Shown here in pieces: positions 1 through 16,051 of a stretch of DNA of 16,051 nt (positions are counted from its first letter, which is position 1; each line of letters opens with the position of its first letter). This DNA is from a virus (taxonomy: Duplodnaviria; Heunggongvirae; Uroviricota; Caudoviricetes), in the IMG/VR virus record IMGVR_UViG_2563366861_000001, positions 1 through 16,051 of that record. One strand, given 5' to 3'. Position numbers and translations under genes: made by a program. The notes under the pieces were generated by a model that did no database searches, had not been told where the DNA came from, and saw nothing but the letters and a program-made list of their open reading frames with translations.

Positions 1-187
1 GGGAAAGCTGCACGTAATCAGCAAGCGATATACGCAGCGAATTGAGCGGCATAACCTGAATCTGAGGCAGCACCTGGCACGGCTGGGACGGAAGTCGCTG
101 TCGTTCTCAAAATCGGTGGAGCTGCATGACAAAGTCATCGGGCATTATCTGAACATAAAACACTATCAATAAGTTGGAGTCATTACC
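1..187 (+). mobile_element. IS1: IS1 insertion sequence, 3' portion (window starts inside the element); ends with the IS1 terminal inverted repeat ...CACTATCAATAAGTTGGAGTCATTACC at 161-187
   Basis: Bases 1-187 are the exact reverse complement of 15588-15774; encodes the InsB C-terminus and ends in the canonical IS1 terminal repeat (recognised from memory of IS1). Confidence 0.93.
2..172 (+). CDS. insB: IS1 transposase InsB, C-terminal fragment (5' end outside window)
   Basis: Translation of 2-172 gives [56 protein letters not shown] then TAA at 170-172, the same C-terminus as the 15603-15980 ORF on the minus strand. Confidence 0.9.
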
Positions 188-2266
188 GCCTCTCACGATA
201 TTACCTTTGTTGGTATTGTACAGACCGCTAAAGCGTCCGGTATGGAACGTTTCCCGCTGCCGTATGTGCTGACCAACTGCCATAACTCACTCTGCGCCGT
301 CGGCGGCACTATTAACGGTGATGACCATGTTTTTGGTTTATCGGCGGCCCAGCGTTATGGCGGTATTTTTGTGCCTCCGCATATTGCGGTCATCCATCAA
401 TATATGCGTGAGATGATGGCAGGCGGCGGCAAAATGATCCTCGGGTCAGACAGCCACACCCGTTACGGTGCATTAGGGACAATGGCAGTCGGTGAGGGCG
501 GCGGTGAGTTGGTAAAACAGCTGCTTAATGACACCTGGGATATCGACTATCCGGGCGTGGTTGCGGTGCATCTGACCGGAAAACCTGCGCCGTATGTGGG
601 GCCACAGGATGTGGCGCTGGCTATCATTGGCGCGGTGTTCAAAAACGGTTACGTCAAAAACAAAGTCATGGAGTTCGTTGGACCGGGCGTTAGCGCGCTC
701 TCTACCGATTTCCGTAACAGCGTTGACGTGATGACCACTGAAACGACCTGTTTAAGTTCTGTCTGGCAAACCGATGAAGAAGTCCATAACTGGCTGGCGC
801 TGCACGGTCGCGGCCAGGATTACTGCCAGCTTAACCCTCAACCGATGGCGTACTACGATGGCTGCATCAGCGTTGATTTAAGCGCCATCAAACCAATGAT
901 TGCGCTGCCGTTCCACCCGAGCAACGTGTATGAAATCGACACACTGAACCAGAACCTGACCGACATTCTGCGTGAGATTGAAATTGAGTCCGAACGCGTG
1001 GCGCACGGTAAAGCCAAACTCTCGCTGCTGGATAAAGTGGAAAATGGTCGCCTGAAAGTGCAGCAGGGGATTATCGCGGGCTGTTCTGGCGGTAACTACG
1101 AAAACGTCATCGCGGCGGCGAATGCACTGCGCGGTCAATCCTGTGGCAATGACACCTTCTCGCTGGCAGTTTACCCGTCATCACAGCCGGTGTTTATGGA
1201 TCTCGCCAAAAAAGGTGTGGTAGCAGATTTGATTGGCGCAGGCGCAATCATCAGAACCGCGTTCTGCGGCCCATGCTTTGGCGCGGGCGATACGCCAATC
1301 AACAACGGTTTGAGTATTCGCCACACCACGCGTAACTTCCCGAACCGCGAAGGCTCTAAGCCAGCTAATGGGCAGATGTCAGCGGTGGCGTTGATGGACG
1401 CTCGTTCTATCGCTGCGACTGCGGCAAACGGTGGCTATTTAACCTCTGCCAGCGAACTTGATTGCTGGGACAACGTGCCGGAGTACGCCTTCGATGTAAC
1501 GCCGTATAAAAACCGTGTTTATCAGGGCTTTGTGAAAGGGGCAACTCAGCAACCGCTGATTTACGGGCCGAACATTAAAGACTGGCCGGAATTGGGTGCG
1601 CTGACTGACAATATCGTCCTGAAAGTGTGCTCGAAGATCCTCGACGAAGTGACCACCACCGACGAACTGATTCCTTCCGGTGAAACCTCTTCTTATCGTT
1701 CAAATCCGATTGGTCTGGCGGAGTTTACCCTGTCTCGCCGCGATCCCGGTTATGTTAGCAGAAGTAAAGCGACTGCTGAGCTGGAAAATCAGCGTCTGGC
1801 GGGGAATGTCAGCGAGCTGACAGAGGTGTTTGCGCGCATTAAGCAGATTGCTGGTCAGGAGCATATTGATCCGCTGCAAACTGAAATTGGCAGCATGGTC
1901 TATGCGGTGAAACCAGGCGATGGTTCTGCGCGTGAACAGGCGGCGAGCTGCCAGCGTGTGATTGGCGGTCTGGCGAATATTGCCGAGGAGTACGCGACTA
2001 AACGCTATCGTTCTAACGTCATCAACTGGGGGATGTTACCGCTGCAAATGGCGGAAGTACCAACCTTTGAAGTGGGGGATTACATTTACATCCCTGGCAT
2101 TAAAGCGGCGCTGGATAATCCGGGTACGACGTTTAAAGGTTATGTGATCCATGAAGATGCGCCGGTAACGGAAATTACGCTCTATATGGAAAGTCTGACT
2201 GCTGAAGAGCGCGAGATTATCAAGGCGGGTAGTTTGATTAACTTCAATAAAAACCGTCAGATGTAA
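188..2266 (+). pseudogene. ybhJ: Aconitase-family protein YbhJ, 5'-truncated by the IS1 insertion (frame is open from the IS1 boundary; first ATG at 242)
   Basis: 674-aa ORF 242-2266 with aconitase-family character ([15 protein letters not shown]-like motifs) and recognised as YbhJ; the frame stays open upstream to the TAA at 170-172 inside IS1, so the native N-terminus (about 60 aa by my recollection of a ~753-aa YbhJ) is missing. Confidence 0.8.
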
Positions 2267-2282
2267 AAAGCGCCATGTGAAT

Positions 2283-2390
<108 letters not shown>

Positions 2391-2406
2391 AAATAGTTAA
2401 TTGCTC

Positions 2407-3690
2407 TTACTTCTTCGCCTCTGCAACCACTTTACTACCCACGCCGCGGTTATTGTATTCCCACATGCGGTTGTAGTTAGTGTCATTCAGATTGCGCTGT
2501 ATTTCGTCGTTATCATCTACGCTGCCGGTATTACCCGCAAACGGACGATTAGAGATCACCGCATCGGCCCACGGTTTAGCCGTGTTAAAACCTTCGTTGA
2601 TGGCGCTATCACGGATCACCACCTGACCGTTGGTATTGGCATCAACATCCAGCGAGCGGCCCAGTTGCGCCACACCATCACCGAAAGCATTGAAACGGCT
2701 GTTTACGGCGAGGAAACCGTAGTAAATGTTGGACAGCGTAGCCGGTGCAAACACATACGCTTCTTGCTGAGTACGTGAGTTCACCACGCGGAATTCGGTG
2801 TTATCGAACACCACTGCGCCGCGACCAGAAACGATATCCACATCCCCTTCAATGTAGCTGTTGGTCACCAGCGTACGCGGCTGACGATTTGTTTCCAGAC
2901 GGTTCTGCACACCGCTGTTGGTGACAAAGAAGGTGTTCTGACGACCGAGAATGTTAACGTTGTTAATCTGTACCTGGTCACCATCAGTACGCAGTGCCAC
3001 CGCCGGATGGTTACCTGCATCTACGCTATCGCCCAGCGTGTTTTCGATGGTCAGATTTTGCAGTTGCAGGCCATTGTTTTGTGACCAGAAGACCGCAGAG
3101 CAGAGAACACCGATACTGTCGCTGCGTTTGCTCTGGCAGCTATCGTACATATACCACGCTGGTTTACCTGGCATATATTTGCCGCGCGGGTTGACGTCGT
3201 GACGCCAGTCGGCAGGGCTCATGCCACCATCAAGGGAAAGCCCAATCTTCACATCAATCGGTTTTTCACCTGTACCGTACAGAGTAATTCCACCCGGAGC
3301 GGCAGGGACATATACCGTTCCCTGATACTCACCAGGCATCACGGCAATATACTGGCGCTTGTTGGTACGCTTGATAATTGCCGCATCTACCGCCGCCTGA
3401 ATCGTGGTATGCGTTACACCTTGAGTGCCCGCCGGGCCGACAACAAAGTCAGGTTGCGCAGGCAGGGTAATCGGGGAAGGATTCCACGCTGCAGCACCTG
3501 GTGTCAGGGATGCAAAATAGTGTTGAGCATCGAAATTCTGCGCTTCTTTTGCCGACAGAATCGGGCGAGAAGAGGTACCAGGCGCGGTTTGATCAGAAGG
3601 ACGTTGATCGGGCGGGGTTGAGCTACAGGCGGTCAGCGTCACGCCAAAAGCCAATGCCAGCGCCAGACGGGAAACTGAAAATGTGTTCAC
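2407..3690 (-). CDS. ybhC: YbhC, pectinesterase-family outer-membrane lipoprotein (putative acyl-CoA thioesterase); GTG start
   Basis: 427-aa ORF; N-terminus MNTFSVSRLALALAFGVTLTAC has a signal peptide and lipobox; recognised as E. coli YbhC, the gene immediately gal-proximal to attB-lambda. Confidence 0.9.
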   Translation of the reverse strand: MNTFSVSRLALALAFGVTLTACSSTPPDQRPSDQTAPGTSSRPILSAKEAQNFDAQHYFASLTPGAAAWNPSPITLPAQPDFVVGPAGTQGVTHTTIQAAVDAAIIKRTNKRQYIAVMPGEYQGTVYVPAAPGGITLYGTGEKPIDVKIGLSLDGGMSPADWRHDVNPRGKYMPGKPAWYMYDSCQSKRSDSIGVLCSAVFWSQNNGLQLQNLTIENTLGDSVDAGNHPAVALRTDGDQVQINNVNILGRQNTFFVTNSGVQNRLETNRQPRTLVTNSYIEGDVDIVSGRGAVVFDNTEFRVVNSRTQQEAYVFAPATLSNIYYGFLAVNSRFNAFGDGVAQLGRSLDVDANTNGQVVIRDSAINEGFNTAKPWADAVISNRPFAGNTGSVDDNDEIQRNLNDTNYNRMWEYNNRGVGSKVVAEAKK

Positions 3691-3730: not shown

Positions 3731-3850
3731 AAGCCTGCTTTTTTATACTAAGTTGGCATTATAAAAAAGCATTGCTTATCAATTTGTTGCAACGAACAGG
3801 TCACTATCAGTCAAAATAAAATCATTATTTGATTTCAATTTTGTCCCACT
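3731..3850. other. attL: attL of a lambda-type prophage: core GCTTTTTTATACTAA at 3737-3751 followed by the phage P' arm (IHF H' site region and Int arm-type sites P'1-P'3, e.g. AGGTCACTAT, CAGTCAAAAT, AAATCATTAT)
   Basis: Exact lambda att core and P' arm sequence (TTATACTAAGTTGGCATTATAAAAAAGCATTGCTTATCAATTTGTTGCAACGAACAGGTCACTATCAGTCAAAATAAAATCATTATTTGATTTCAATTTTGTCCCACTCC); bacterial arm on the ybhC side, phage arm running into int. Confidence 0.93.
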
Positions 3851-4895
3851 CCCTGCCTCTGTCATCACGATACTGTGATGCCATGGTGTCCGACTTATGC
3901 CCGAGAAGATGTTGAGCAAATTTATCGCTTATCTGCTTCTCATAGAGTCTTGCAGACAAACTGCGCAACTCGTGAAAGGTTGGCGGATCCCCTTCGAAGG
4001 AGAGACCTGATGCTTTTCGTGCGCGCATAAAATACCTTGATACTGTGCCGGATGAAAGCGGTTCACGACGAGTAGATGCAATTATGGTTTCTCCGCCAAG
4101 AATCTTTTTGCATTTATCAAGTGTTTCCTTCATTGATATCCCGAGAGCATCAACATGCAATGTTGTTGGGATGGCAATTTTTACGCCTGTTTTGCTTTGC
4201 TCGACATAAAGATATCCATCTACGATATCAGACCACTTCATTTCGCATAAATCACCAACTCGCTGCCCGGTAACAACAGCCAGTTCCATTGCAAGTCTAA
4301 GCCAACATGGTGATGATTCTGCTGCTTGATAAATTTTCAGGTATTCGTCAGCCGTAAGTCTTGATCTCCTTACCTCTGATTTTGCAGCGCGAGTGGCTGC
4401 GACCGGGTTTGTTGTTATATGGCCTTCAGCCATAGCCTCTCGGAATGCATCGCTCAGTGTTGATCTGATTAACTTGGCTGATGCCGCCTTTCCCTCGTCT
4501 ATGTATCCATTGAGCATTGCCGCAATTTCTTTTGTGGTGATGTCTTCAAGTGGAGCATCAGGCAGACCCCTCCTTATTGCTTTAATTTTGCTCATGTAAT
4601 TTATGAGTGTCTTCTGCTTGATTCCTCTGCTGGCCAGGATTTTTTCGTAGCGATCAAGCCATGAATGTAACGTAACGGAATTATCACTGTTGATTCTCGC
4701 TGTCAGAGGCTTGTGTTTGTGTCCTGAAAATAACTCAATGTTGGCCTGTATAGCTTCAGTGATTGCGATTCGCCTGTCTCGGCCTAATCCAAACTCTTTA
4801 CCCGTCCTTGGGTCCCTGTAGCAGTAATATCCATTGTTTCTTATATAAAGGTTAGGGGGTAAATCCCGGCGCTCATGACTTCGCCTTCTTCCCAT
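3825..4895 (-). CDS. int: Lambda-type integrase (tyrosine recombinase Int), apparently full length
   Basis: 356-aa ORF, near-identical to remembered phage lambda Int (MGRRRSHERRDLPPNLYIRNNGYYCYRDPRTGKEFGLGRDRR...REWDKIEIK); 3' end overlaps the P' arm as in lambda. Confidence 0.97.
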   Translation of the reverse strand: MGRRRSHERRDLPPNLYIRNNGYYCYRDPRTGKEFGLGRDRRIAITEAIQANIELFSGHKHKPLTARINSDNSVTLHSWLDRYEKILASRGIKQKTLINYMSKIKAIRRGLPDAPLEDITTKEIAAMLNGYIDEGKAASAKLIRSTLSDAFREAMAEGHITTNPVAATRAAKSEVRRSRLTADEYLKIYQAAESSPCWLRLAMELAVVTGQRVGDLCEMKWSDIVDGYLYVEQSKTGVKIAIPTTLHVDALGISMKETLDKCKKILGGETIIASTRREPLSSGTVSRYFMRARKASGLSFEGDPPTFHELRSLSARLYEKQISDKFAQHLLGHKSDTMASQYRDDRGREWDKIEIK

Positions 4896-5091
4896 TTCTG
4901 ATCCTCTTCAAAAGGCTACCTGTTACTGGTCGATTTAAGTCAACCTTTACCGCTGATTCGTGGAACAGATATTCTCTTCCATCCTTAACCGGAGGAGGGA
5001 ATATCCTGCATTCGCGCACCCATCGACGAACTGTTTCAAGGCTTCTTGGGCGTCGCTGGCGAGCGTTCCACTCCTGAAGTGTCAAGTACAT
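4873..5091 (-). CDS. xis: Lambda-type excisionase Xis; overlaps the int start as in lambda
   Basis: 72-aa ORF MYLTLQEWNARQRRPRSLETVRRWVRECRIFPPPVKDGREYLFHESAVKVDLNRPVTGSLLKRIRNGKKAKS matching remembered lambda Xis. Confidence 0.95.
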   Translation of the reverse strand: MYLTLQEWNARQRRPRSLETVRRWVRECRIFPPPVKDGREYLFHESAVKVDLNRPVTGSLLKRIRNGKKAKS

Positions 5092-5380: not shown

Positions 5381-5809
5381 TTATTCAATATCTATTCCTG
5401 TAATATCTTTTATCTTTTTCCTTGCAAAGCCTTTTGCTAGTGATTTTGAAACACTTATTAGTGTACTAATTCCCTCATCCTTAAAGTTTGTTTTTATAGT
5501 TTGCCAGACCTCCTTTTGACGCAAGTCAGCAATAAAATCATGCCCTCTTGCTGTCAACCTCAGTGGTACTTCGATCCAACTATATCCAACACCTTCCCCT
5601 AACTCGTTGGACATTATATGACCGAACCCAGGTTTTCCATCAACCCTGACTATTAATTCGTAGTCGCATAATAATCGCATATGGAAAATAAAATTTTGGT
5701 CATATCTATTAAAGCCATTATCCTCTAGTTCACTAAGCATCGTGTCAGGGCCATGAGTTTTTTCGAATGCGATAAGTAGATCTTTTAGATATTGCTGGTC
5801 TAATTTCAT
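5381..5809 (-). CDS. Hypothetical 142-aa protein (moron gene in the int-xis-proximal accessory hotspot); function unknown
   Basis: ATG-initiated ORF with a GGAGG Shine-Dalgarno 6 nt upstream, its own downstream terminator, and AT-rich composition distinct from the flanking lambda-type genes; no family recognised. Confidence 0.65.
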   Translation of the reverse strand: MKLDQQYLKDLLIAFEKTHGPDTMLSELEDNGFNRYDQNFIFHMRLLCDYELIVRVDGKPGFGHIMSNELGEGVGYSWIEVPLRLTARGHDFIADLRQKEVWQTIKTNFKDEGISTLISVSKSLAKGFARKKIKDITGIDIE

Positions 5810-6469: not shown

Positions 6470-7084
6470 TTATCTAAAAGTCTTTCCACTTTTAACGTCT
6501 AGGTATATTCTGTTCGACAACGTCATTCCTCCGCAATATGTGAAATAGATGTTTTTCCCCTTATTGCTTGATGCCATCCACCCTCCGATTTCCTTAAAGT
6601 CGCTTTCCGTGCAGACCCCTTCGTTTATTAACTTCCTAGCTGCCGAAGAAAACTCTTTTTTGTATATACGGTAGTCATCAGATCCTTTGATTAAAGTATC
6701 ATCTCCGCTCGCATTTTCAGCAGGATCTGATGGCCTTTCACTGCTAAGATCACTAAGTTTAACCCATTCTGAAAACTTGCCATTGACGATTCCGTTTTTT
6801 CTTGTGCAGGATTTATTACCTTCTTTAATATATTCGCTTTCCCCTCCCACACATGAGGCTGAATATGGCTCAGTTATACGAACCCATTCACCTTTTTTTT
6901 CTAGAAAATCTACGCCTTCCCTGAAAAATAGTTTCCCAGCCACTCCACATTTACTTGAAGGGCAGGTATGTCTTTCCGTTCGATCAACAACAACCCAAAG
7001 TCTTGATTCATTTTTTGCCATTGCCGATGGTATTTGAGATGAGACAATTAACGTAAGCCCTAAAATTAGTATTGATTTTTTCAT
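6470..7084 (-). CDS. Hypothetical secreted, cysteine-rich 204-aa protein (moron); function unknown
   Basis: ATG start with an AAGGA Shine-Dalgarno; N-terminus MKKSILILGLTLIVSSQIPSAMA is a typical Sec signal peptide; 7 Cys in the mature part; low GC; terminator downstream. Confidence 0.65.
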   Translation of the reverse strand: MKKSILILGLTLIVSSQIPSAMAKNESRLWVVVDRTERHTCPSSKCGVAGKLFFREGVDFLEKKGEWVRITEPYSASCVGGESEYIKEGNKSCTRKNGIVNGKFSEWVKLSDLSSERPSDPAENASGDDTLIKGSDDYRIYKKEFSSAARKLINEGVCTESDFKEIGGWMASSNKGKNIYFTYCGGMTLSNRIYLDVKSGKTFR

Positions 7085-7530: not shown

Positions 7531-7563
7531 GATGGTACGCTGCAGGATAATGTCCGGTGTCAT
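7531..7563 (-). pseudogene. exo: Remnant of lambda exo (first 10 codons MTPDIILQRT only), then unrelated sequence
   Basis: ATG overlaps the bet stop (ATGA) exactly as in lambda; reading diverges from remembered lambda Exo after codon 10 and hits a stop 8 codons later. Confidence 0.6.
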
Positions 7564-8009
7564 GCTGCCACCTTCTGCTCAGTGGCTTTCTGTTTCAGGA
7601 ATCCAAGAGCTTTCACTGCTTCGGCCTGTGTCAGTTCTGACGATGCGCGAATGTCGCGGCGAAATATCTGGGAACAGAGCGGCAATAAGTCGTCATCCCA
7701 TGTTTTGTCCAGGGCAATCAGCAGAGTGTTAATCTCCTGCATGGTTTCATCGTTAACCGGAGTAATGTCGCGTTCCGGCTGACGTTCTGCGGTGTATGCG
7801 GTATTTTCGACAATGCGCTCGGCTTCATCCTTGTCATAGATACCAGCAAATCCGAAGGCCAGACGGGCACACTGAATCATGGCTTTATGCCGTAACATCC
7901 GTTTGGGATGCGACTGCCACGGCCCCGTAATTTCTCTGCCTTCGCGGGTTTTGAATGGTTCGCGGCGGCATTCATCCATCCACTCGGTAACGCAGATCGG
8001 ATGATTACC
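7560..8009 (-). pseudogene. bet: Remnant of lambda bet (Red-beta): C-terminal ~150 codons only, 5' portion deleted
   Basis: Translation NHPICVTEWMDECRREPFKTREGREITGPWQSHPKRMLRHKAMIQCARLAFGFAGIYDKDEAERIVENTAYTAERQPERDITPVNDETMQEINTLLIALDKTWDDDLLPLCSQIFRRDIRASSELTQAEAVKALGFLKQKATEQKVAA matches the remembered C-terminus of lambda Bet; homology stops near 8009. Confidence 0.88.
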
Positions 8010-8613: not shown

Positions 8614-9174
8614 ATGAAGAAGATAATATTATTAGCCATGATTATTGGTTCTTTAACAGGTTGCGCTAGTGTGCCACCATTGAATTTTTCAACACCTAAC
8701 GTGGGAGTTAGCCAGAAAAAAATAGATGCTGAAATTAAGTCATTAACGGTATCACTTGCTCGTCCAGATGAGCAGAAAGGGGATATCACTGCTGGTATGG
8801 AGGCTATAACTCCAATTTGGCGTGAATCTTTGCAGGAAGCACTCGACCGAATGACTATTTTTCGTGATAGTTCACCAAATACGGTTAGCTTAAATGTTAA
8901 AGTGTTGGCTCTTGACGTTCCTGCTTTTGGTGTTTCAATGACAACTAAAGCAATTGCAAGGTATGAAATAATCAACCGTGCGAATGGTGATATTATATAT
9001 ACGCAGGATATTGAGTCTACCGGTACTGTTCCAGCCAGTTACGCATTCTACGGTATTGTTCGAGCACGCGAATCTGTTAATCGCGCGGTGCAAAACAACA
9101 TAACGCAGTTCTTGCAAGCATTAGAAAGTGTTGATCTTTCTCGTCCAATGTTTCCTGTTAGGGTAGCTAAATGA
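8614..9174 (+). CDS. Putative lipoprotein, 186 aa (signal peptide plus lipobox LTGC); possibly YajG-like, function unknown
   Basis: MKKIILLAMIIGSLTGCAS… lipoprotein signal; ATG with upstream AAGG; stop overlaps the next gene's start (ATGA); low GC. Confidence 0.7.
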   Translation: MKKIILLAMIIGSLTGCASVPPLNFSTPNVGVSQKKIDAEIKSLTVSLARPDEQKGDITAGMEAITPIWRESLQEALDRMTIFRDSSPNTVSLNVKVLALDVPAFGVSMTTKAIARYEIINRANGDIIYTQDIESTGTVPASYAFYGIVRARESVNRAVQNNITQFLQALESVDLSRPMFPVRVAK

Positions 9175-9623
9175 AGCGATTATTCGTAATTGCTCCACTC
9201 TTAGTGTTGGTTGGATGCGCACAAAATATATCGCCAAATAGTTATTCTGTTGGCTCTGTGGGCATGGTTAATCGAACTATCGCTGGTACAGTTATTAGTG
9301 CTAGGGGGGTTGATATCAGTGGGACTTCCGCGTTAGGCGGGACTGCTGGGGCTGCCGTGGGGGCAACCGCTGGTTCTGCGCTTGGTGGGGGAGTTCGTTC
9401 TAATATCGTTGGTGCCGTTGGTGGTGCAGTCATTGGTGGTATTGCCGGGGCAGCAATCGAATCTTCAGCAACAAAACAAACAGGCATGGAATATGTTGTC
9501 GAAACTGAGAATGGGAATTTAATGACCATTGTTCAAGGCAAAGATCCGTTATTTACTCAAGGAAGTAAGGTCCTTGTTTTATACGGAAACCCTTCTCGCA
9601 TAATAACAGACCCGCGTCACTAA
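9171..9623 (+). CDS. SlyB-like outer-membrane lipoprotein with a glycine-zipper domain, 150 aa
   Basis: Lipobox LLVLVGCA, then the Gly-rich segment GTSALGGTAGAAVGATAGSALGGGVRSNIVGAVGGAVIGGIAGAAIE and a C-terminal region resembling SlyB/Pcp (family assignment from memory). Confidence 0.7.
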   Translation: MKRLFVIAPLLVLVGCAQNISPNSYSVGSVGMVNRTIAGTVISARGVDISGTSALGGTAGAAVGATAGSALGGGVRSNIVGAVGGAVIGGIAGAAIESSATKQTGMEYVVETENGNLMTIVQGKDPLFTQGSKVLVLYGNPSRIITDPRH

Positions 9624-11303: not shown

Positions 11304-11687
11304 ATGCGTGATATTCAGATGGTTCTTGAGCGTTGGGGAGCGTGGGCGGCTAATAATCATGAAGATGTGACCTGGTCGTCCATTGCCGCCGGTTTTAAGG
11401 GATTAATTACTTCAAAAGTAAAATCTCGCCCGCAATGTTGTGACGATGACGCGATGATCATTTGCGGGTGCATGGCCCGTCTGAAAAAGAACAACAGCGA
11501 TTTGCACGATTTATTAGTAGATTATTATGTAGTCGGTATGACATTCATGTCACTGGCAGGTAAGCATTGCTGCTCTGATGGTTATATCGGGAAAAGGTTA
11601 CAGAAGGCTGAGGGTATAATTGAAGGGATGTTAATGGCATTAGATATCCGGTTAGAGATGGATATCGTTGTTAATAACTCTAATTAA
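11304..11687 (+). CDS. Late-gene antiterminator Q (phage 82/DLP12 QuuD-type), 127 aa from the ATG at 11304
   Basis: [60 protein letters not shown]… with Cys-rich zinc-binding motifs; sits after the nin genes and before the lysis cassette. Confidence 0.85.
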
Positions 11688-11702
11688 TATGCCAATTGTT
11701 TA

Positions 11703-11738
11703 CTAAAAATTATTAAAAATGGGGCGTTGAGACGCCCC
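11703..11738 (-). terminator. Candidate intrinsic terminator for the porin gene (stem GGGGCG / CGCCCC, then ATTTTTAATAATTTTT on the minus strand)
   Basis: Inverted repeat 11721-11726 / 11733-11738 with a U-rich run on the minus-strand 3' side. Confidence 0.4.
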
Positions 11739-11826
11739 CAAAAATAAAGGGTAATATATAACAGAAGGTTTATATAGTTAGAAGCAAGGTTGTGCTCCTA
11801 AAGGAAGTGGCTTGAGGGAGCCACTT

Positions 11827-11866
11827 ATATGTTGGGGAGGCAAAGCCTCCCGCAACATATCTTTTA
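11827..11866 (+). terminator. Candidate hairpin terminator downstream of Q (stem ATATGTTGGGGAGGC / GCCTCCCGCAACATAT followed by CTTTT)
   Basis: Long imperfect inverted repeat 11827-11860 followed by a short T-run; lies between convergent Q and the porin gene. Confidence 0.35.
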
Positions 11867-11875
11867 GTAATCAAA

Positions 11876-12958
11876 TTAGAACTGGTAAACCATACCTACA
11901 GCAACGATATCATCGGTAGCAACGCCAGATGCTTTCGTGAAATCGCTCTTATCAATCAGGTTGATTTTGTAATCAACAAAAGTGGACATATTTTTGTTGA
12001 AGTAATAGGTTGCACCTACATCAATATATTCAACCAGGTCCTGATCACCCCACGCACCCAAGTCTTTTCCTTTAGATTGCAGGTAAGCAACGGACGGACG
12101 CAGACCGAAGTCGAACTGATATTGTGCAACTACTTCGAAGTTTTGTGCTTTGTTGGCAATATGGTTATTACCAAAAACAGTCATGTTCTGGGTTTCAGAA
12201 TAGGTGGTAGCCAGATAGATGTTGTTCGCATCATATTTCAGACCAGCTGCCCATACTTCAGCATTTTGACCAGATGCATTCAGGCTGTTGTTACCGTAGA
12301 TAACCTGATTATTAGTGCGGTCAGATTTAGCATAGGTTGCACCTACACCGAATCCTTCATACTCATAAGTAGTGGAGAAACCGAAACCATCACCATTAGC
12401 TTCAGTTACGTCAGTGCGGTCATTTTTACCCTGATACTGAGCAGCAAAGTTCAGACCATCAACCAGACCAAAGAAGTCATTGTTACGATAAGTTGCAACA
12501 CCTGTGGTGCGACCAGTCATGAATACATCTGTTTGGGTCCAGGTATCGCCACCGAATTCTGGCAGAACGTCGGTCCATGCACCAATATCGTATGCTACAC
12601 CGTAGTTACGGCCATAATCGATGGAGCCGTAGTCACCGAATTTCAGGCCAGCGAAGGCAAGACGGGTTTTATCTTTGGAGGAACCTTGAGATTCAGCGCG
12701 GTTGCCTTTGAATTCATATTCCCACTGACCGAAACCAGTCAGTTGATCGTTGATTTGGGTTTCACCTTTGAAGCCAAGACGGGCATAAGTAGTATCACCA
12801 TCATCTGCATCATTAGAGGAGAAGTAGTGCTTAGCATTAACTTTCCCGTACAGATCCAGCTTGTTACTGTCTTTATTATAAATTTCAGCTGCCTGAGCAG
12901 ACATCGCCATCAGTACTGATGCAGCTACAGCAGAAATTGCCACTGTTAATTTTTTCAT
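11876..12958 (-). CDS. nmpC: Phage-borne OmpC-family general porin (NmpC/Lc type), 360-aa precursor, apparently full length; start taken at [11 protein letters not shown]…
   Basis: Signal peptide [23 protein letters not shown], mature N-terminus [17 protein letters not shown]…, C-terminal …VAVGMVYQF with terminal Phe typical of porins; located between Q and the holin as in DLP12 and PA-2. Confidence 0.9.
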
Positions 12959-13384
12959 CGTGAGCCCTTTTTTTGAACTATTATTAAAAAATGATGTCAC
13001 TGCGCGATAAATATTCATCTAATCAATGTGATTATTTCAAGATGTAAGTTTTGGTTTCTCATTTGATTTGTGAAGTAGATCTCTATTTTTATCTGAACTT
13101 TTTCTATCGAATCCTATTCATGGCTCTTGGCTGAATAAAAATAAATCTATTAGCCAATTTATATTAATGGCTGTTATTTATAAGTGCTCTATAATTTGAA
13201 GATTCAATTTAAACCAGCTAAAAATAACGCTGGAAATTATTTGTTGGTTATTTGTTGAGATTTGCTTATGTATTTGTAGTGGTGTTTTCAATACTCGGTA
13301 GCATTCTCGCAAATATCATTTAGTGGTTTACGTACGTAAAAAATTGGTTATGCTGTTAAGAGTGGTTACTTCGTCACACAGCTT

Positions 13385-13416
13385 AAACCCGCCGTCGAGC
13401 GGGTTTTTCCATTTTT
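13385..13416 (+). terminator. Intrinsic terminator upstream of the lysis cassette, candidate tR' (8-bp stem AAACCCGC / GCGGGTTT, loop CGTCGA, then TTTTCCATTTTTT)
   Basis: Perfect inverted repeat 13385-13392 / 13399-13406 followed by a T-rich tract on the plus strand, about 130 nt before the holin start. Confidence 0.55.
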
Positions 13417-13545
13417 TGAGTCTCGATATTAGCTGATAACCCAATACCTGAGTTATTCACTGACTCCGAGTCTGTTAAGTTTCTGCTTTTTTGCGATACG
13501 TTGTATTCCCTCAATTTACACCCGCTTTGTCTGCGAGGTGGGGTT

Positions 13546-13761
13546 ATGAAATCCATGGATAAGTTAACAACGGGTGTCGCCTATGGCACCTCAGCAGGTA
13601 GTGCCGGTTACTGGTTTTTACAGCTGCTCGATAAAGTCACGCCCTCACAGTGGGCAGCAATAGGTGTGCTGGGTAGCCTGGTATTTGGCCTGCTGACGTA
13701 CCTGACAAACCTTTATTTCAAGATTAAAGAAGATAAGCGCAAGGCTGCGAGAGGTGAATAA
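13546..13761 (+). CDS. S: Class II holin/pinholin of the phage 21 S family, 71 aa, with dual-start motif MKSM (antiholin/holin)
   Basis: [71 protein letters not shown], close to remembered S21; Shine-Dalgarno GAGGTGGGG; stop overlaps the endolysin start (TAATG). Confidence 0.9.
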
Positions 13762-14747: not shown

Positions 14748-15041
14748 TTATTGTGAGCAATACACACGCGCTTCCAGCGGAGTATAAATGCCTAAAGTAA
14801 TAAAACCGAGCAATCCATTTACGAATGTTTGCTGGGTTTCTGTTTTAACAACATTTTCTGCGCCGCCACAAATTTTGGCTGCATCGACAGTTTTCTTCTG
14901 CCCAATTCCAGAAACGAAGAAATGATGGGTGATGGTTTCCTTTGGTGCTACTGCTGCCGGTTTGTTTTGAACAGTAAACGTCTGTTGAGCACATCCTGTA
15001 ATAAGCAGGGCCAGCGCAGTAGCGAGTAGCATTTTTTTCAT
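14748..15041 (-). CDS. bor: Bor lipoprotein (serum-resistance lysogenic-conversion factor), 97 aa
   Basis: MKKMLLATALALLITGCAQQTFTVQNKPAAVAPKETITHHFFVSGIGQKKTVDAAKICGGAENVVKTETQQTFVNGLLGFITLGIYTPLEARVYCSQ; recognised as lambda Bor / DLP12 BorD. Confidence 0.9.
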   Translation of the reverse strand: MKKMLLATALALLITGCAQQTFTVQNKPAAVAPKETITHHFFVSGIGQKKTVDAAKICGGAENVVKTETQQTFVNGLLGFITLGIYTPLEARVYCSQ

Positions 15042-15331: not shown

Positions 15332-15587
15332 TTAGCGTGGAAAGATTTGTGTAGTGTTCTGAATGCTCTCAGTAAATAGTAATGAATTATCAAAGGTATA
15401 GTAATATCTTTTATGTTCATGGATATTTGTAACCCATCGGAAAACTCCTGCTTTAGCAAGATTTTCCCTGTATTGCTGAAATGTGATTTCTCTTGATTTC
15501 AACCTATCATAGGACGTTTCTATAAGATGCGTGTTTCTTGAGAATTTAACATTTACAACCTTTTTAAGTCCTTTTATTAACACGGTG
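15332..15587 (-). pseudogene. ybcV: YbcV-like (DUF1398) gene, 5'-truncated by the right-hand IS1
   Basis: The reading frame …[83 protein letters not shown] runs open into the IS1 terminal repeat; the ORF-track start at 15601 is a TTG inside IS1. Family name recalled from the DLP12 gene order, with moderate certainty. Confidence 0.55.
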
Positions 15588-16051
15588 GGTAATGACTCCA
15601 ACTTATTGATAGTGTTTTATGTTCAGATAATGCCCGATGACTTTGTCATGCAGCTCCACCGATTTTGAGAACGACAGCGACTTCCGTCCCAGCCGTGCCA
15701 GGTGCTGCCTCAGATTCAGGTTATGCCGCTCAATTCGCTGCGTATATCGCTTGCTGATTACGTGCAGCTTTCCCTTCAGGCGGGATTCATACAGCGGCCA
15801 GCCATCCGTCATCCATATCACCACGTCAAAGGGTGACAGCAGGCTCATAAGACGCCCCAGCGTCGCCATAGTGCGTTCACCGAATACGTGCGCAACAACC
15901 GTCTTCCGGAGCCTGTCATACGCGTAAAACAGCCAGCGCTGGCGCGATTTAGCCCCGACGTATCCCCACTGTTCGTCCATTTCCGCGCAGACGATGACGT
16001 CACTGCCCGGCTGTATGCGCGAGGTTACCGACTGCGGCCTGAGTTTTTTAA
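15588..16051 (-). mobile_element. IS1: IS1 insertion sequence, partial (runs off the window end), inverted relative to the IS1 at 1-187
   Basis: Begins with the IS1 terminal repeat GGTAATGACTCCAACTTATTGATAGTG at 15588; 15588-15774 is the exact reverse complement of 1-187. Confidence 0.95.
15603..16049 (-). CDS. insB: IS1 transposase InsB reading frame (5' end outside window)
   Basis: …[68 protein letters not shown]…HYLNIKHYQ, recognised as IS1 InsB. Confidence 0.92.

What the first reader, a model, noticed from the sequence alone, without database searches (positions are those of the whole stretch)
11876..12958. Apparently intact phage-borne porin between Q and the holin
The gene encodes a complete 360-aa OmpC-family precursor with signal peptide and C-terminal Phe. 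The homologous nmpC of E. coli K-12 DLP12 is, to my recollection, disrupted by an insertion sequence, so this copy may be functional. A prophage porin can alter antibiotic and phage susceptibility.
Basis: partly seen in the sequence, partly recalled or inferred. Interest (0 to 1): 0.4.

Follow-up and report, generated by a model that had tools for sequence, protein, structure and literature searches.

The report
Intact prophage porin gene nmpC
This is an uninterrupted copy of the well-known phage-carried outer-membrane porin gene nmpC/lc (often labelled OmpD or OmpC); it is broken in laboratory E. coli K-12 and B but intact in roughly half of natural E. coli, so it is real and probably functional, and ordinary.

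Summary
Window 11876-12958 on the minus strand is a clean 360-codon ORF. It encodes a complete general porin precursor: a 23-aa signal peptide, the L3 PEFGG motif and a C-terminal YQF. It matches Pfam Porin_1 end to end (E 3e-153) and is 62-68% identical to OmpC, OmpF, PhoE and OmpN.

It is an allele of nmpC/lc, the porin cassette that lambdoid phages carry between Q and the lysis genes. Both flanks are almost identical to K-12 DLP12 nmpC. These include the region that holds the mapped PnmpC promoter and the IpeX-type 3' UTR. K-12 carries IS5 58 nt before the stop codon, E. coli B carries IS1, and this copy has neither.

The exact protein is on at least 1000 public contigs and in plaque-forming ECOR phages. 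About 2500 of 5426 complete E. coli genomes hold a full-length homologue.

Purifying selection is strong (19 synonymous and 0 non-synonymous differences to a phage copy). The allele is a mosaic whose differences from K-12 NmpC cluster at residues 182-188, 219-235 and 268-272.

The finding is already known and of low interest.

The parts
11876..12958 (-). Porin coding sequence (nmpC/lc/ompD-type allele), 360 aa plus stop
   Evidence: ORF and translation. Pfam Porin_1 1-337/337, E 3e-153. NCBIfam OmpC subfamily 518 bits against a cut-off of 484. PDB porins aligned over residues 24-360. 90% identical to the reconstructed K-12 NmpC. RefSeq WP_000737275.1.
12890..12958 (-). Sec signal peptide, 23 codons ([23 protein letters not shown], cleaved before AEIYNK)
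   Evidence: Mature solved porin chains begin at query residue 24. The AQA/ANA then AE(I/V)YNK junction is aligned in all six porins.
12959..13157 (-). 5' UTR and promoter region, equivalent to K-12 PnmpC (-199..-1)
   Evidence: Only 2 differences from K-12 (1 SNP and 1 single-base indel). In K-12 this 199-bp region carries an active sigma-70 promoter with a 5'-RACE-mapped TSS; it is CRP-activated and repressed by OmpR, IHF and MprA (PMC11677980). My own reading places the -35 TTGAAA at 13040-13035, a weak -10 near 13017-11, and a G start near 13005-13003; this is inferred and not confirmed. The wider flank 12959-13330 is 29% G+C.
11712..11875 (-). Structured 3' UTR ending in an intrinsic terminator, the counterpart of the IpeX sRNA region of DLP12
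   Evidence: 5 differences from the K-12 nmpC-quuD spacer. About 164 nt from stop codon to U-tract, against 167 nt reported for IpeX, which is processed from the phage porin transcript (PMC12197685). Folds at -63.2 kcal/mol, z = -9.4. Terminator hairpin at 11721-11738 on the minus strand. Rfam has no matching model.
11304..11687 (+). Antiterminator Q (quuD), convergent with the porin gene
   Evidence: Pfam Phage_antitermQ E 3.5e-53. RefSeq annotation quuD in the identical locus.
13331..13415 (+). Conserved non-coding block with a terminator-like hairpin just upstream of the holin; likely the promoter-proximal late-operon (qut/tR'-type) module
   Evidence: Terminator-like hairpin at 13385-13406 followed by a T-run. 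The 77-bp block 13331-13407 is about 90% identical to DNA directly upstream of the holin of Shigella phage SfII, where it also follows a reverse-oriented gene. The function is inferred and not tested.
13546..13761 (+). Holin essD (P21 S type), divergent from the porin gene
   Evidence: Pfam Phage_holin_2_1 E 2e-35. RefSeq essD.

Best explanation
The ORF is an intact allele of nmpC/lc, the lambdoid-phage porin gene that databases also label OmpD or OmpC. It is a self-contained lysogenic-conversion cassette between the Q antiterminator and the lysis genes of a decayed lambdoid prophage at att-lambda, and it is transcribed antisense to them.

Inferred mechanism, step by step:
1. A host sigma-70 promoter in the AT-rich 5' flank, the PnmpC region mapped in K-12, drives a monocistronic mRNA that ends at its own intrinsic terminator.
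2. The precursor is exported through Sec. Its 23-aa signal peptide is removed, and the C-terminal ...YQF beta-signal directs BAM-dependent insertion.
3. It forms a trimeric 16-strand general-diffusion porin with the usual L3 constriction (PEFGG, Arg cluster, Asp/Glu).
4. The structured 3' UTR of about 164 nt corresponds to IpeX, an sRNA processed from the porin transcript and reported to lower OmpC synthesis.

The net effect is a changed porin repertoire, and therefore changed small-molecule permeability and changed phage and colicin receptor display.

What is shown here: the intact ORF, family membership, synteny, near-identity of the regulatory flanks to K-12, purifying selection, and how widespread the gene is. 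What is inferred: expression in this strain, pore properties, and IpeX activity.
For: Family: Porin_1 full length. 62-68% identity and an end-to-end alignment with OmpC, OmpF, PhoE and OmpN; invariant columns include R60, R99, R150, D130, P133-E134-F135-G136-G137 and Y358-Q359-F360. Solved porins match at E 1e-137 to 1e-116.

Identity as nmpC: the Q-to-holin segment is collinear with K-12 DLP12, where nmpC is split by IS5B. The protein is 90% identical to the reconstructed K-12 NmpC, with the first roughly 148 residues identical.

Regulatory flanks are conserved: 2 differences in -199..-1 and 5 in the 3' UTR. The K-12 promoter is active, with a mapped TSS (PMC11677980). IpeX derives from the porin transcript (PMC12197685). 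The 3' UTR folds with z = -9.4.

Selection: 19 synonymous and 0 non-synonymous differences to the phage PhiR34_1 copy. Against K-12, codons 116 to the end give dS 0.94 and dN 0.078. Fop is 0.73, the highest in the window.

Spread: the exact protein is on at least 1000 contigs. An identical protein sits in phages PhiR34_1 and PhiR68_2 with the same Q / porin(-) / holin order. 2502 of 5426 complete E. coli genomes hold a full-length homologue, almost all annotated as an intact CDS in a spread sample.

Expression of this gene family in wild strains: an NmpC protein spot was found in AIEC outer membranes, and that study's nmpC PCR primers match this window exactly, giving the published 863-bp product (PMC9409007). 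nmpC RNA and protein are higher at 37 C in UPEC CFT073 (PMC12890032). NmpC was detected by proteomics in a STEC strain (PMC9731836). S. flexneri nmpC is induced anaerobically in a partly FNR-dependent way (PMC4229854).
Against: No expression data exist for this strain. The simple sigma-70 consensus scan found no strong promoter on the minus strand upstream of the gene; the likely -10 is weak, as expected for a CRP-dependent promoter. The 29% G+C flank and the reported OmpR, IHF and MprA repression (PMC11677980) allow for silencing under many conditions. The literature calls nmpC a 'quiescent' porin gene in E. coli B(E) (title cited in PMC3333887). The 16-strand trimer fold was not modelled here. 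IpeX has no Rfam model, so its identity rests on position, length and near-identity to the K-12 spacer.
Confidence: 0.85

Rival explanations
1. The gene is intact but effectively silent in this host. It would be a 'quiescent' porin gene kept repressed by nucleoid proteins and OmpR/IHF acting on its AT-rich flank, contributing nothing to the outer membrane under ordinary conditions.
For: The 5' flank is 29% G+C. No strong consensus promoter was found. Repression of PnmpC by OmpR, IHF and MprA is reported (PMC11677980). nmpC is called quiescent in E. coli B(E) (title cited in PMC3333887 and PMC5745476). The RybB seed is complementary to +14..+20 of the mRNA (nmpC is reported as a RybB target in PMC3333887).
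Against: PnmpC is active enough in K-12 at 37 C to give the only detectable read-through ins5A mRNA (PMC11677980). NmpC protein is seen in AIEC, STEC and UPEC (PMC9409007, PMC9731836, PMC12890032). Strong purifying selection and high-expression codon usage are hard to reconcile with permanent silence. In the B strain REL606 the gene is silent because IS1 splits it, not because of regulation.
Confidence: 0.2
2. The cassette is kept mainly for the phage's benefit as a receptor-swap, superinfection-exclusion module. The new porin replaces OmpC while IpeX lowers OmpC, so OmpC-dependent phages, including relatives of the carrier phage, adsorb less well. Solute uptake would be secondary.
For: The same cassette with an identical protein is carried by viable temperate phages. 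The IpeX-type 3' UTR is conserved and is reported to reduce OmpC (PMC12197685, PMC3333887). Differences between alleles concentrate at residues 182-188, 219-235 and 268-272, which I assign from memory to exposed loops L4-L6, and reflect recombination between deeply diverged alleles. From my own recollection, not checked here: phage PA-2 uses OmpC as its receptor and its lysogens make Lc while losing OmpC.
Against: The prophage here is dead: no repressor or replication genes, a recT fragment, and IS1 at both ends of the window. Any benefit would therefore now accrue to the host. Nothing here tests adsorption. This reading complements the main explanation more than it excludes it.
Confidence: 0.3
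3. It is the host's own ompC, as the RefSeq label 'ompC: porin OmpC' suggests.
For: It scores above the cut-off of the NCBIfam OmpC subfamily model (518 against 484 bits). RefSeq names it ompC.
Against: It is only 64% identical to K-12 OmpC but 90-91% identical to K-12 NmpC. It sits inside a prophage between quuD and essD, not next to micF/rcsD where ompC lies. Up to 6 places per genome match. Viable phages carry it.
Confidence: 0.02
4. It is a cryptic pseudogene with a subtle defect, such as a wrong start, a damaged beta-signal or a loop deletion that prevents folding.
For: It is 5 residues shorter than K-12 NmpC, with small deletions at about residues 185 and 227.
Against: The indels are in-frame and lie in regions where OmpC, OmpF, PhoE and OmpN also vary in length. 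All invariant porin columns are kept. The identical protein occurs on at least 1000 contigs and in viable phages, with 0 non-synonymous against 19 synonymous changes.
Confidence: 0.03

Closest known systems
NmpC of the E. coli K-12 cryptic prophage DLP12 (b0553, qsr' region)
   Same: Same position and orientation between quuD and essD. The 5' flank is nearly identical (9 differences in about 520 nt), as is the 3' UTR (5 differences). Codons 1-115 are virtually identical at the DNA level (dS 0.027). The protein is 90% identical overall.
   Different: K-12 carries IS5B 58 nt before the stop codon; this copy does not. From about codon 116 on, the DNA is deeply diverged (dS 0.94), with in-frame indels and substitutions clustered at residues 182-188, 219-235 and 268-272 (360 against 365 aa). 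The host prophage here sits at att-lambda (ybhC | int ... bioA side) with a lambda-type integrase, not at argU.
Porin cassettes of viable lambdoid phages (Lc of PA-2; 'OmpD' of ECOR phages PhiR34_1 and PhiR68_2, ev099, ev243, 4A7 and others)
   Same: The protein is 100% identical in PhiR34_1 and PhiR68_2 and 94-98% identical in many others. The order YbcN-NinE-YbcO-RusA-YlcG-Q / porin(-) / S-R-Rz / Bor is the same. Public sources name the exact protein 'outer membrane porin protein LC'.
   Different: Here the carrier is a decayed, IS-ridden prophage. The PA-2 Lc sequence itself was not available to compare; from my recollection it resembles the 365-aa K-12 type.
OmpD of Salmonella enterica
   Same: It is regarded in the literature as the counterpart of E. 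coli NmpC (PMC3333887). Many database entries label this very protein OmpD. It shares RybB-type post-transcriptional control: the seed is complementary at +14..+20.
   Different: From my recollection, not tested here, Salmonella ompD is a chromosomal core gene and not a prophage cassette. Identity was not measured directly; only two Salmonella phage hits fell in the 60-80% band.
Chromosomal general porins OmpC, OmpF, PhoE and OmpN (and K. pneumoniae OmpK36/OmpK37)
   Same: Same family and architecture, with 62-68% identity over the full length. They share the signal-peptide junction, the PEFGG L3 motif, the Arg cluster and the C-terminal YQF.
   Different: It is a separate paralogue on mobile DNA. 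Loop lengths differ: it lacks the long insertion that OmpC and OmpN carry in one variable-length region. It has its own regulatory flanks with an sRNA-bearing 3' UTR instead of a divergent micF or micC.

Membership tests
General bacterial porin family (Pfam Porin_1; OmpC/OmpF/PhoE type) | Full-length match to the family profile | tested here: met
   PF00267 covers profile 1-337/337 and residues 29-360, E 3.1e-153. PDB porins match at E 1e-137 to 1e-108 over residues 24-360.
General bacterial porin family (Pfam Porin_1; OmpC/OmpF/PhoE type) | Cleavable N-terminal signal peptide; mature N-terminus AE(I/V)YNKDGNKLD | tested here: met
   23-aa hydrophobic leader ending in AQA. Mature solved chains start at residue 24. 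The junction aligns in all six porins.
General bacterial porin family (Pfam Porin_1; OmpC/OmpF/PhoE type) | L3 constriction loop (PEFGG) with opposing Arg cluster and acidic residues | tested here: met
   P133 E134 F135 G136 G137, D130, R60, R99 and R150 are invariant columns in the alignment with OmpC, OmpF, PhoE and OmpN.
General bacterial porin family (Pfam Porin_1; OmpC/OmpF/PhoE type) | C-terminal aromatic beta-signal (terminal Phe) | tested here: met
   Ends in ...VGMVYQF; Y358, Q359 and F360 are invariant.
General bacterial porin family (Pfam Porin_1; OmpC/OmpF/PhoE type) | 16-strand beta-barrel, trimeric | not tested
   No structure was predicted. The fold is inferred from 62-68% identity over the full length to solved trimeric porins.
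General bacterial porin family (Pfam Porin_1; OmpC/OmpF/PhoE type) | Forms a diffusion channel in the outer membrane | not testable with these tools
   Needs expression, bilayer or liposome-swelling assays.
NmpC/Lc lambdoid-phage porin cassette | Located between the Q antiterminator and the S-R-Rz lysis genes of a lambdoid (pro)phage, on the opposite strand | tested here: met
   quuD 11304-11687 (+), porin 11876-12958 (-), essD 13546-13761 (+). The layout is the same in K-12 DLP12 and in phage PhiR34_1.
NmpC/Lc lambdoid-phage porin cassette | High sequence identity to the reference NmpC and collinear flanks | tested here: met
   90% aa identity to the reconstructed K-12 NmpC. Flanks differ at 2 positions (-199..-1) and 5 positions (3' UTR).
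NmpC/Lc lambdoid-phage porin cassette | Own promoter (PnmpC) independent of phage late transcription | tested here: inconclusive
   The promoter region mapped in K-12 (PMC11677980) is conserved, and the antisense orientation rules out late-operon expression. The consensus scan found no strong sigma-70 site, and activity in this strain is untested.
IpeX sRNA (3' UTR of the DLP12 porin transcript) | RNA of about 167 nt immediately 3' of the porin stop codon, ending at the intrinsic terminator and processed from the porin transcript | tested here: met
   About 164 nt separate the stop codon from the U-tract (11712-11875). There are 5 differences from the K-12 spacer. The fold is strong, z = -9.4, with a terminator at 11721-11738. 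The description is taken from PMC12197685. Processing and activity are not testable here, and Rfam has no model.
Chromosomal OmpC orthologue (the RefSeq label) | Orthologous context (ompC-micF-rcsD) and near-identity to OmpC | tested here: not met
   Prophage context, against the K-12 ompC context with micF and rcsD. Only 64% identity to K-12 OmpC. The NCBIfam hit is to a subfamily-level model.

The most novel reading that the evidence does not exclude
The 360-aa allele is a recombinant. Its N-terminal third and both regulatory flanks are of the K-12 type. The region coding for residues after about 116, where the differences from K-12 NmpC cluster, comes from a deeply diverged lineage (dS about 0.9). 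The most novel reading not excluded is that such segment swapping is an adaptive, recurrent process. Together with the IpeX 3' UTR, it would let a dead prophage at att-lambda act as a host-retained module that re-tunes phage, colicin and antibody recognition. On this reading the repeated IS hits in laboratory lineages (IS5 in K-12, IS1 in B) reflect relaxed or reversed selection in culture.
Probability: 0.2. Interest if true: 0.3.

Novelty: already known. Interest (0 to 1): 0.1.

Why it matters
Very little here is new. nmpC/lc has been known as a phage-borne porin since the 1970s-80s, and intact copies are common and are annotated routinely. Three practical points follow.

1. The RefSeq label 'ompC' for this gene is misleading, because it is a prophage paralogue.
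2. Strains that carry it have an additional general porin, plus an sRNA reported to lower OmpC. This can matter when porin-loss antibiotic resistance or phage and colicin susceptibility is inferred from ompC and ompF genotypes alone.
3. K-12 and B are atypical in having the gene broken by insertion sequences.

Tried and rejected
- Rfam at gathering thresholds over the whole window, and at E<=1 over 11650-13560, gave no family for the 3' UTR. The only hit was a sub-threshold Trp_leader match on the plus strand at 13290-13412 (E 0.36), treated as chance or a terminator-like shape.
- The tRNA scan found none, so there is no tRNA cluster between Q and the lysis genes as there is in Stx phages.
- The consensus promoter scan gave nothing upstream of the porin. 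I fell back on the published K-12 promoter mapping.
- The primary papers are not in the held library: Prilipov 1998, Highton 1985 and Castillo-Keller 2006. What I say about them comes from papers that cite them, or is marked as recollection. I dropped my uncertain memory that nmpC of E. coli B(E) is thermoregulated. What the data show is that REL606 has IS1 in the gene.
- An exact-match scan of species-representative genomes for the IS1/ybhJ junction found nothing, so the source strain is unidentified. No complete E. coli genome holds the whole window. The best two cover 99% at 99.9% identity.
- Loci fetched by accession from K-12 were not visible to the Python sandbox, so K-12 nmpC was rebuilt from alignment A1.
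- I did not run a structure prediction. The useful alignment contains sequences that the tool does not accept, and homology to solved porins is already unambiguous.
- The RybB pairing is only modestly better than shuffles (27 of 500 as good), so it is reported as consistent with the literature and not as evidence.

Full report
**Observation**

The interval 11876-12958 is exactly one open reading frame on the minus strand.
- The start is the ATG at 12958, preceded by AAGGG; the stop is TAA at 11876-11878. This gives 360 codons plus stop.
- The mechanical ORF list runs on to an in-frame ATG at 13018 (380 aa). Every homologue starts at MKK, and the upstream ATG lies in or above the likely -10 region, so 360 aa is correct.
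- The product matches Pfam Porin_1 over the whole profile (E 3.1e-153).
- It scores above the NCBIfam OmpC-subfamily cut-off.
- It matches solved porins (OmpK37, OmpC, OmpK36, PhoE, OmpF) from residue 24 to residue 360 at E 1e-137 to 1e-108.

Aligned with K-12 OmpC, OmpF, PhoE and OmpN, it is 62-68% identical with no frameshift or stop.
- a 23-residue signal peptide ending AQA before AEIYNK;
- the L3 motif PEFGG;
- the conserved arginines R60, R99 and R150 and the acidic D130 and E134;
- the terminal YQF.

**Context**

The window is an E. coli or Shigella chromosome segment.
- ybhJ and ybhC are followed by a lambda-type integrase and excisionase. The element therefore sits at att-lambda; bioA lies on the far side in strain BR1220, which has an identical Q-to-holin segment.
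- The prophage is decayed. It has no repressor or replication genes and carries recT and ren fragments. IS1 sits at both ends of the window.
- Its right part is of the DLP12 type: ybcN, ninE, ybcO, rusA, ylcG, quuD (11304-11687, +), the porin (-), essD (13546-13761, +), rrrD, rzpD, bor (-), then ybcV cut by IS1.
- The porin gene is convergent with Q and divergent from the holin. It therefore cannot be part of the Q-dependent late transcript, unlike stx genes in the equivalent slot.

**Identity**

In K-12 MG1655 the same slot holds nmpC (b0553), annotated as a pseudogene split by IS5B 58 nt before its 3' end.

Alignment of the whole Q-to-holin segment shows collinearity without the IS.
- The 5' flank differs at 9 positions in about 520 nt. 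Only 2 of these fall in the 199 bp before the ATG.
- The 3' spacer differs at 5 positions.

The reconstructed K-12 NmpC (365 aa) is 90% identical to this protein. The first roughly 148 residues are identical. The differences and two in-frame indels cluster at residues 182-188, 219-235 and 268-272. From memory I place these in exposed loops L4-L6, but I did not map them onto a structure.

At the DNA level there is a sharp mosaic junction.
- Codons 1-115 give dS 0.027.
- Codons 116 to the end give dS 0.94 and dN 0.078.

The allele therefore arose by recombination between deeply diverged nmpC lineages and has been under strong purifying selection.

**How common it is**

- The exact protein is in a cluster of 2741 members and was seen on at least 1000 contigs. 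Sources name it 'porin OmpD [Shigella sonnei]', 'outer membrane porin protein LC' and 'porin OmpC'.
- 4048 of 5426 complete E. coli genomes have some match to the gene, and 2502 have a full-length one. The partial matches include ompC and ompF themselves at about 73% identity.
- In a sample spread down that ranking, nearly all full-length hits are single-piece annotated CDSs.
- The exceptions are K-12 derivatives (IS5), B derivatives (IS1; REL606, NEBExpress) and one clinical strain with IS1.
- Forty-two sequenced phages carry the gene. Plaque-forming ECOR phages PhiR34_1 and PhiR68_2 encode a 100% identical protein in the same gene order.
- Against PhiR34_1 the gene shows 19 synonymous and no non-synonymous differences.

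**Regulatory parts**

The 199 bp upstream of K-12 nmpC were shown to carry an active sigma-70 promoter (PMC11677980).
- Its transcription start, a G, was mapped by 5' RACE at 37 C.
- It is activated by CRP and repressed by OmpR, IHF and MprA.
- That region is conserved here apart from one SNP and one single-base indel.

My own placement is -35 TTGAAA at 13040-13035, a weak -10 near 13017-13011, and a start near 13005-13003. This fits the paper's description but is inference, and the simple scan found no strong consensus site. The wider flank is 29% G+C.

Downstream, the roughly 164 nt between the stop codon and the U-tract fold very stably, at -63.2 kcal/mol with z = -9.4. They end in a minus-strand intrinsic terminator at 11721-11738. 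This corresponds in place, size and sequence to IpeX, the 167-nt sRNA of DLP12. IpeX is described as processed from the phage porin transcript and as lowering OmpC (PMC12197685, PMC3333887). Rfam has no model for it.

The 5' seed of RybB is complementary to +14..+20 of the coding region. This fits the reported RybB control of nmpC (PMC3333887), but statistically it is only modestly better than shuffled sequence.

The gene's codon usage is the most expression-adapted in the window: Fop 0.73, against 0.36-0.61 for the other genes.

**Expression in nature**

None of this was tested here, but the literature is consistent.
- NmpC was identified as a protein spot in outer membranes of adherent-invasive E. 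coli. That study's nmpC PCR primers match this window exactly and give the published 863-bp product (PMC9409007).
- nmpC RNA and protein are preferentially expressed at 37 C in UPEC CFT073 (PMC12890032).
- NmpC was quantified in a STEC proteome (PMC9731836).
- S. flexneri nmpC is induced anaerobically in a partly FNR-dependent way (PMC4229854).

**Mechanism and rivals**

The best explanation (confidence about 0.85) is an intact, probably expressed, autonomous lysogenic-conversion cassette. It encodes an additional general-diffusion porin plus an OmpC-lowering 3'-UTR sRNA.

- The main rival is that the gene is intact but kept silent in this host (about 0.2). The AT-rich flank, the reported repressors and the 'quiescent' label support it. 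Selection, codon usage and the published protein detections argue against it.
- A complementary reading is that the cassette's selected role is a receptor swap that protects lysogens from OmpC-dependent phages (about 0.3). The variation between alleles and the IpeX region fit this reading, but nothing here tests it.
- The RefSeq label 'ompC' is rejected as an orthology statement. Identity to OmpC is 64% and the context is prophage, not micF/rcsD.
- A hidden defect is very unlikely.

**Comparison, novelty and score**

This is a member of the known NmpC/Lc phage-porin group within the general porin family. It differs from the K-12 reference only in lacking IS5, in being a recombinant allele with clustered substitutions and small indels, and in sitting in a prophage at att-lambda instead of argU. 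All of this is ordinary variation of a well-described system.

Novelty: already known. Interest: about 0.1.

Noticed in passing
window 1-187 and 15588-16051: Both ends of the window are IS1 sequence: an insB 3' end plus inverted repeat at the left, and an inverted repeat plus insB at the right. The left copy removes the first roughly 180 nt of ybhJ, and the right copy truncates ybcV (remnant ORF 15332-15601, minus strand). No complete E. coli genome contains the whole window. Two (NCTC9040, 1332KP) share the right-hand IS1. An exact scan for the left junction in species-representative genomes found nothing.
   Followed up: partly
window 3825-5091 and the overall layout: The prophage carries a lambda-type integrase (356 aa) and excisionase and sits at att-lambda next to ybhC. 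Its late region is of the DLP12 type, which in K-12 sits at argU. It is therefore a hybrid and heavily deleted element: no cI, O or P, a recT fragment at 7560-7979, and a ren fragment.
   Followed up: partly
window 13331-13415 (+): A conserved non-coding block with a G+C-rich hairpin and T-run (13385-13406) lies about 140 nt upstream of the holin start. It is about 90% identical to the DNA directly upstream of the holin of Shigella phage SfII, where it also follows a reverse-oriented gene. It is probably the late promoter/qut/terminator module, which would put the porin cassette between Q and Q's site of action. A sub-threshold Rfam Trp_leader hit (E 0.36) overlaps it.
   Followed up: partly
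window about 12600-12615 (porin codons about 115-120): There is a sharp recombination junction inside the porin gene. Synonymous divergence from K-12 nmpC jumps from 0.027 to 0.94. Phage PhiR34_1 encodes the identical protein, but with 19 synonymous differences, all between 12479 and 12851.
   Followed up: yes
L004 (E. coli B REL606) 1420-3279; hits H146 and H163: The DLP12 porin gene of E. coli B REL606 and NEBExpress is split by IS1 in mid-gene. A clinical strain (JNEC-KY204) has IS1 in an otherwise 100% identical copy. K-12 has IS5. These are independent IS hits in the same gene.
   Followed up: partly
window 8614-9174 and 9171-9623 (+): Two overlapping lipoprotein-like genes (186 and 150 aa, both with a lipobox-type leader) occupy the place where K-12 DLP12 and phage PhiR34_1 have ybcL/ybcM. 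The second has a weak glycine-zipper match (below the Pfam cut-offs) and the first has no Pfam match.
   Followed up: partly
window 6470-7084 (-) and 5381-5809 (-): A 204-aa secreted protein with no Pfam family and a DUF2513 protein sit in the early-left region of the prophage. Both are low in G+C (0.39 and 0.36).
   Followed up: no
window 13016-13018 (-): An in-frame ATG 60 nt upstream of the true start makes some pipelines call a 380-aa product; a JGI/IMG member of the cluster is 380 aa. It lies in the presumed promoter -10 region, so it is unlikely to be translated.
   Followed up: partly
window 12938-12945 (-), mRNA +14..+20: A 7-nt perfect complement (CAGUGGC) to the 5' seed of the sigma-E-dependent sRNA RybB lies in codons 5-7 of the porin mRNA. 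The duplex energy is -13.9 kcal/mol, and 27 of 500 shuffles do as well.
   Followed up: partly
window 14748-15041 (-): bor, the serum-resistance lipoprotein gene, is a second reverse-oriented lysogenic-conversion gene just after the lysis cassette. It is annotated iss in REL606.
   Followed up: no
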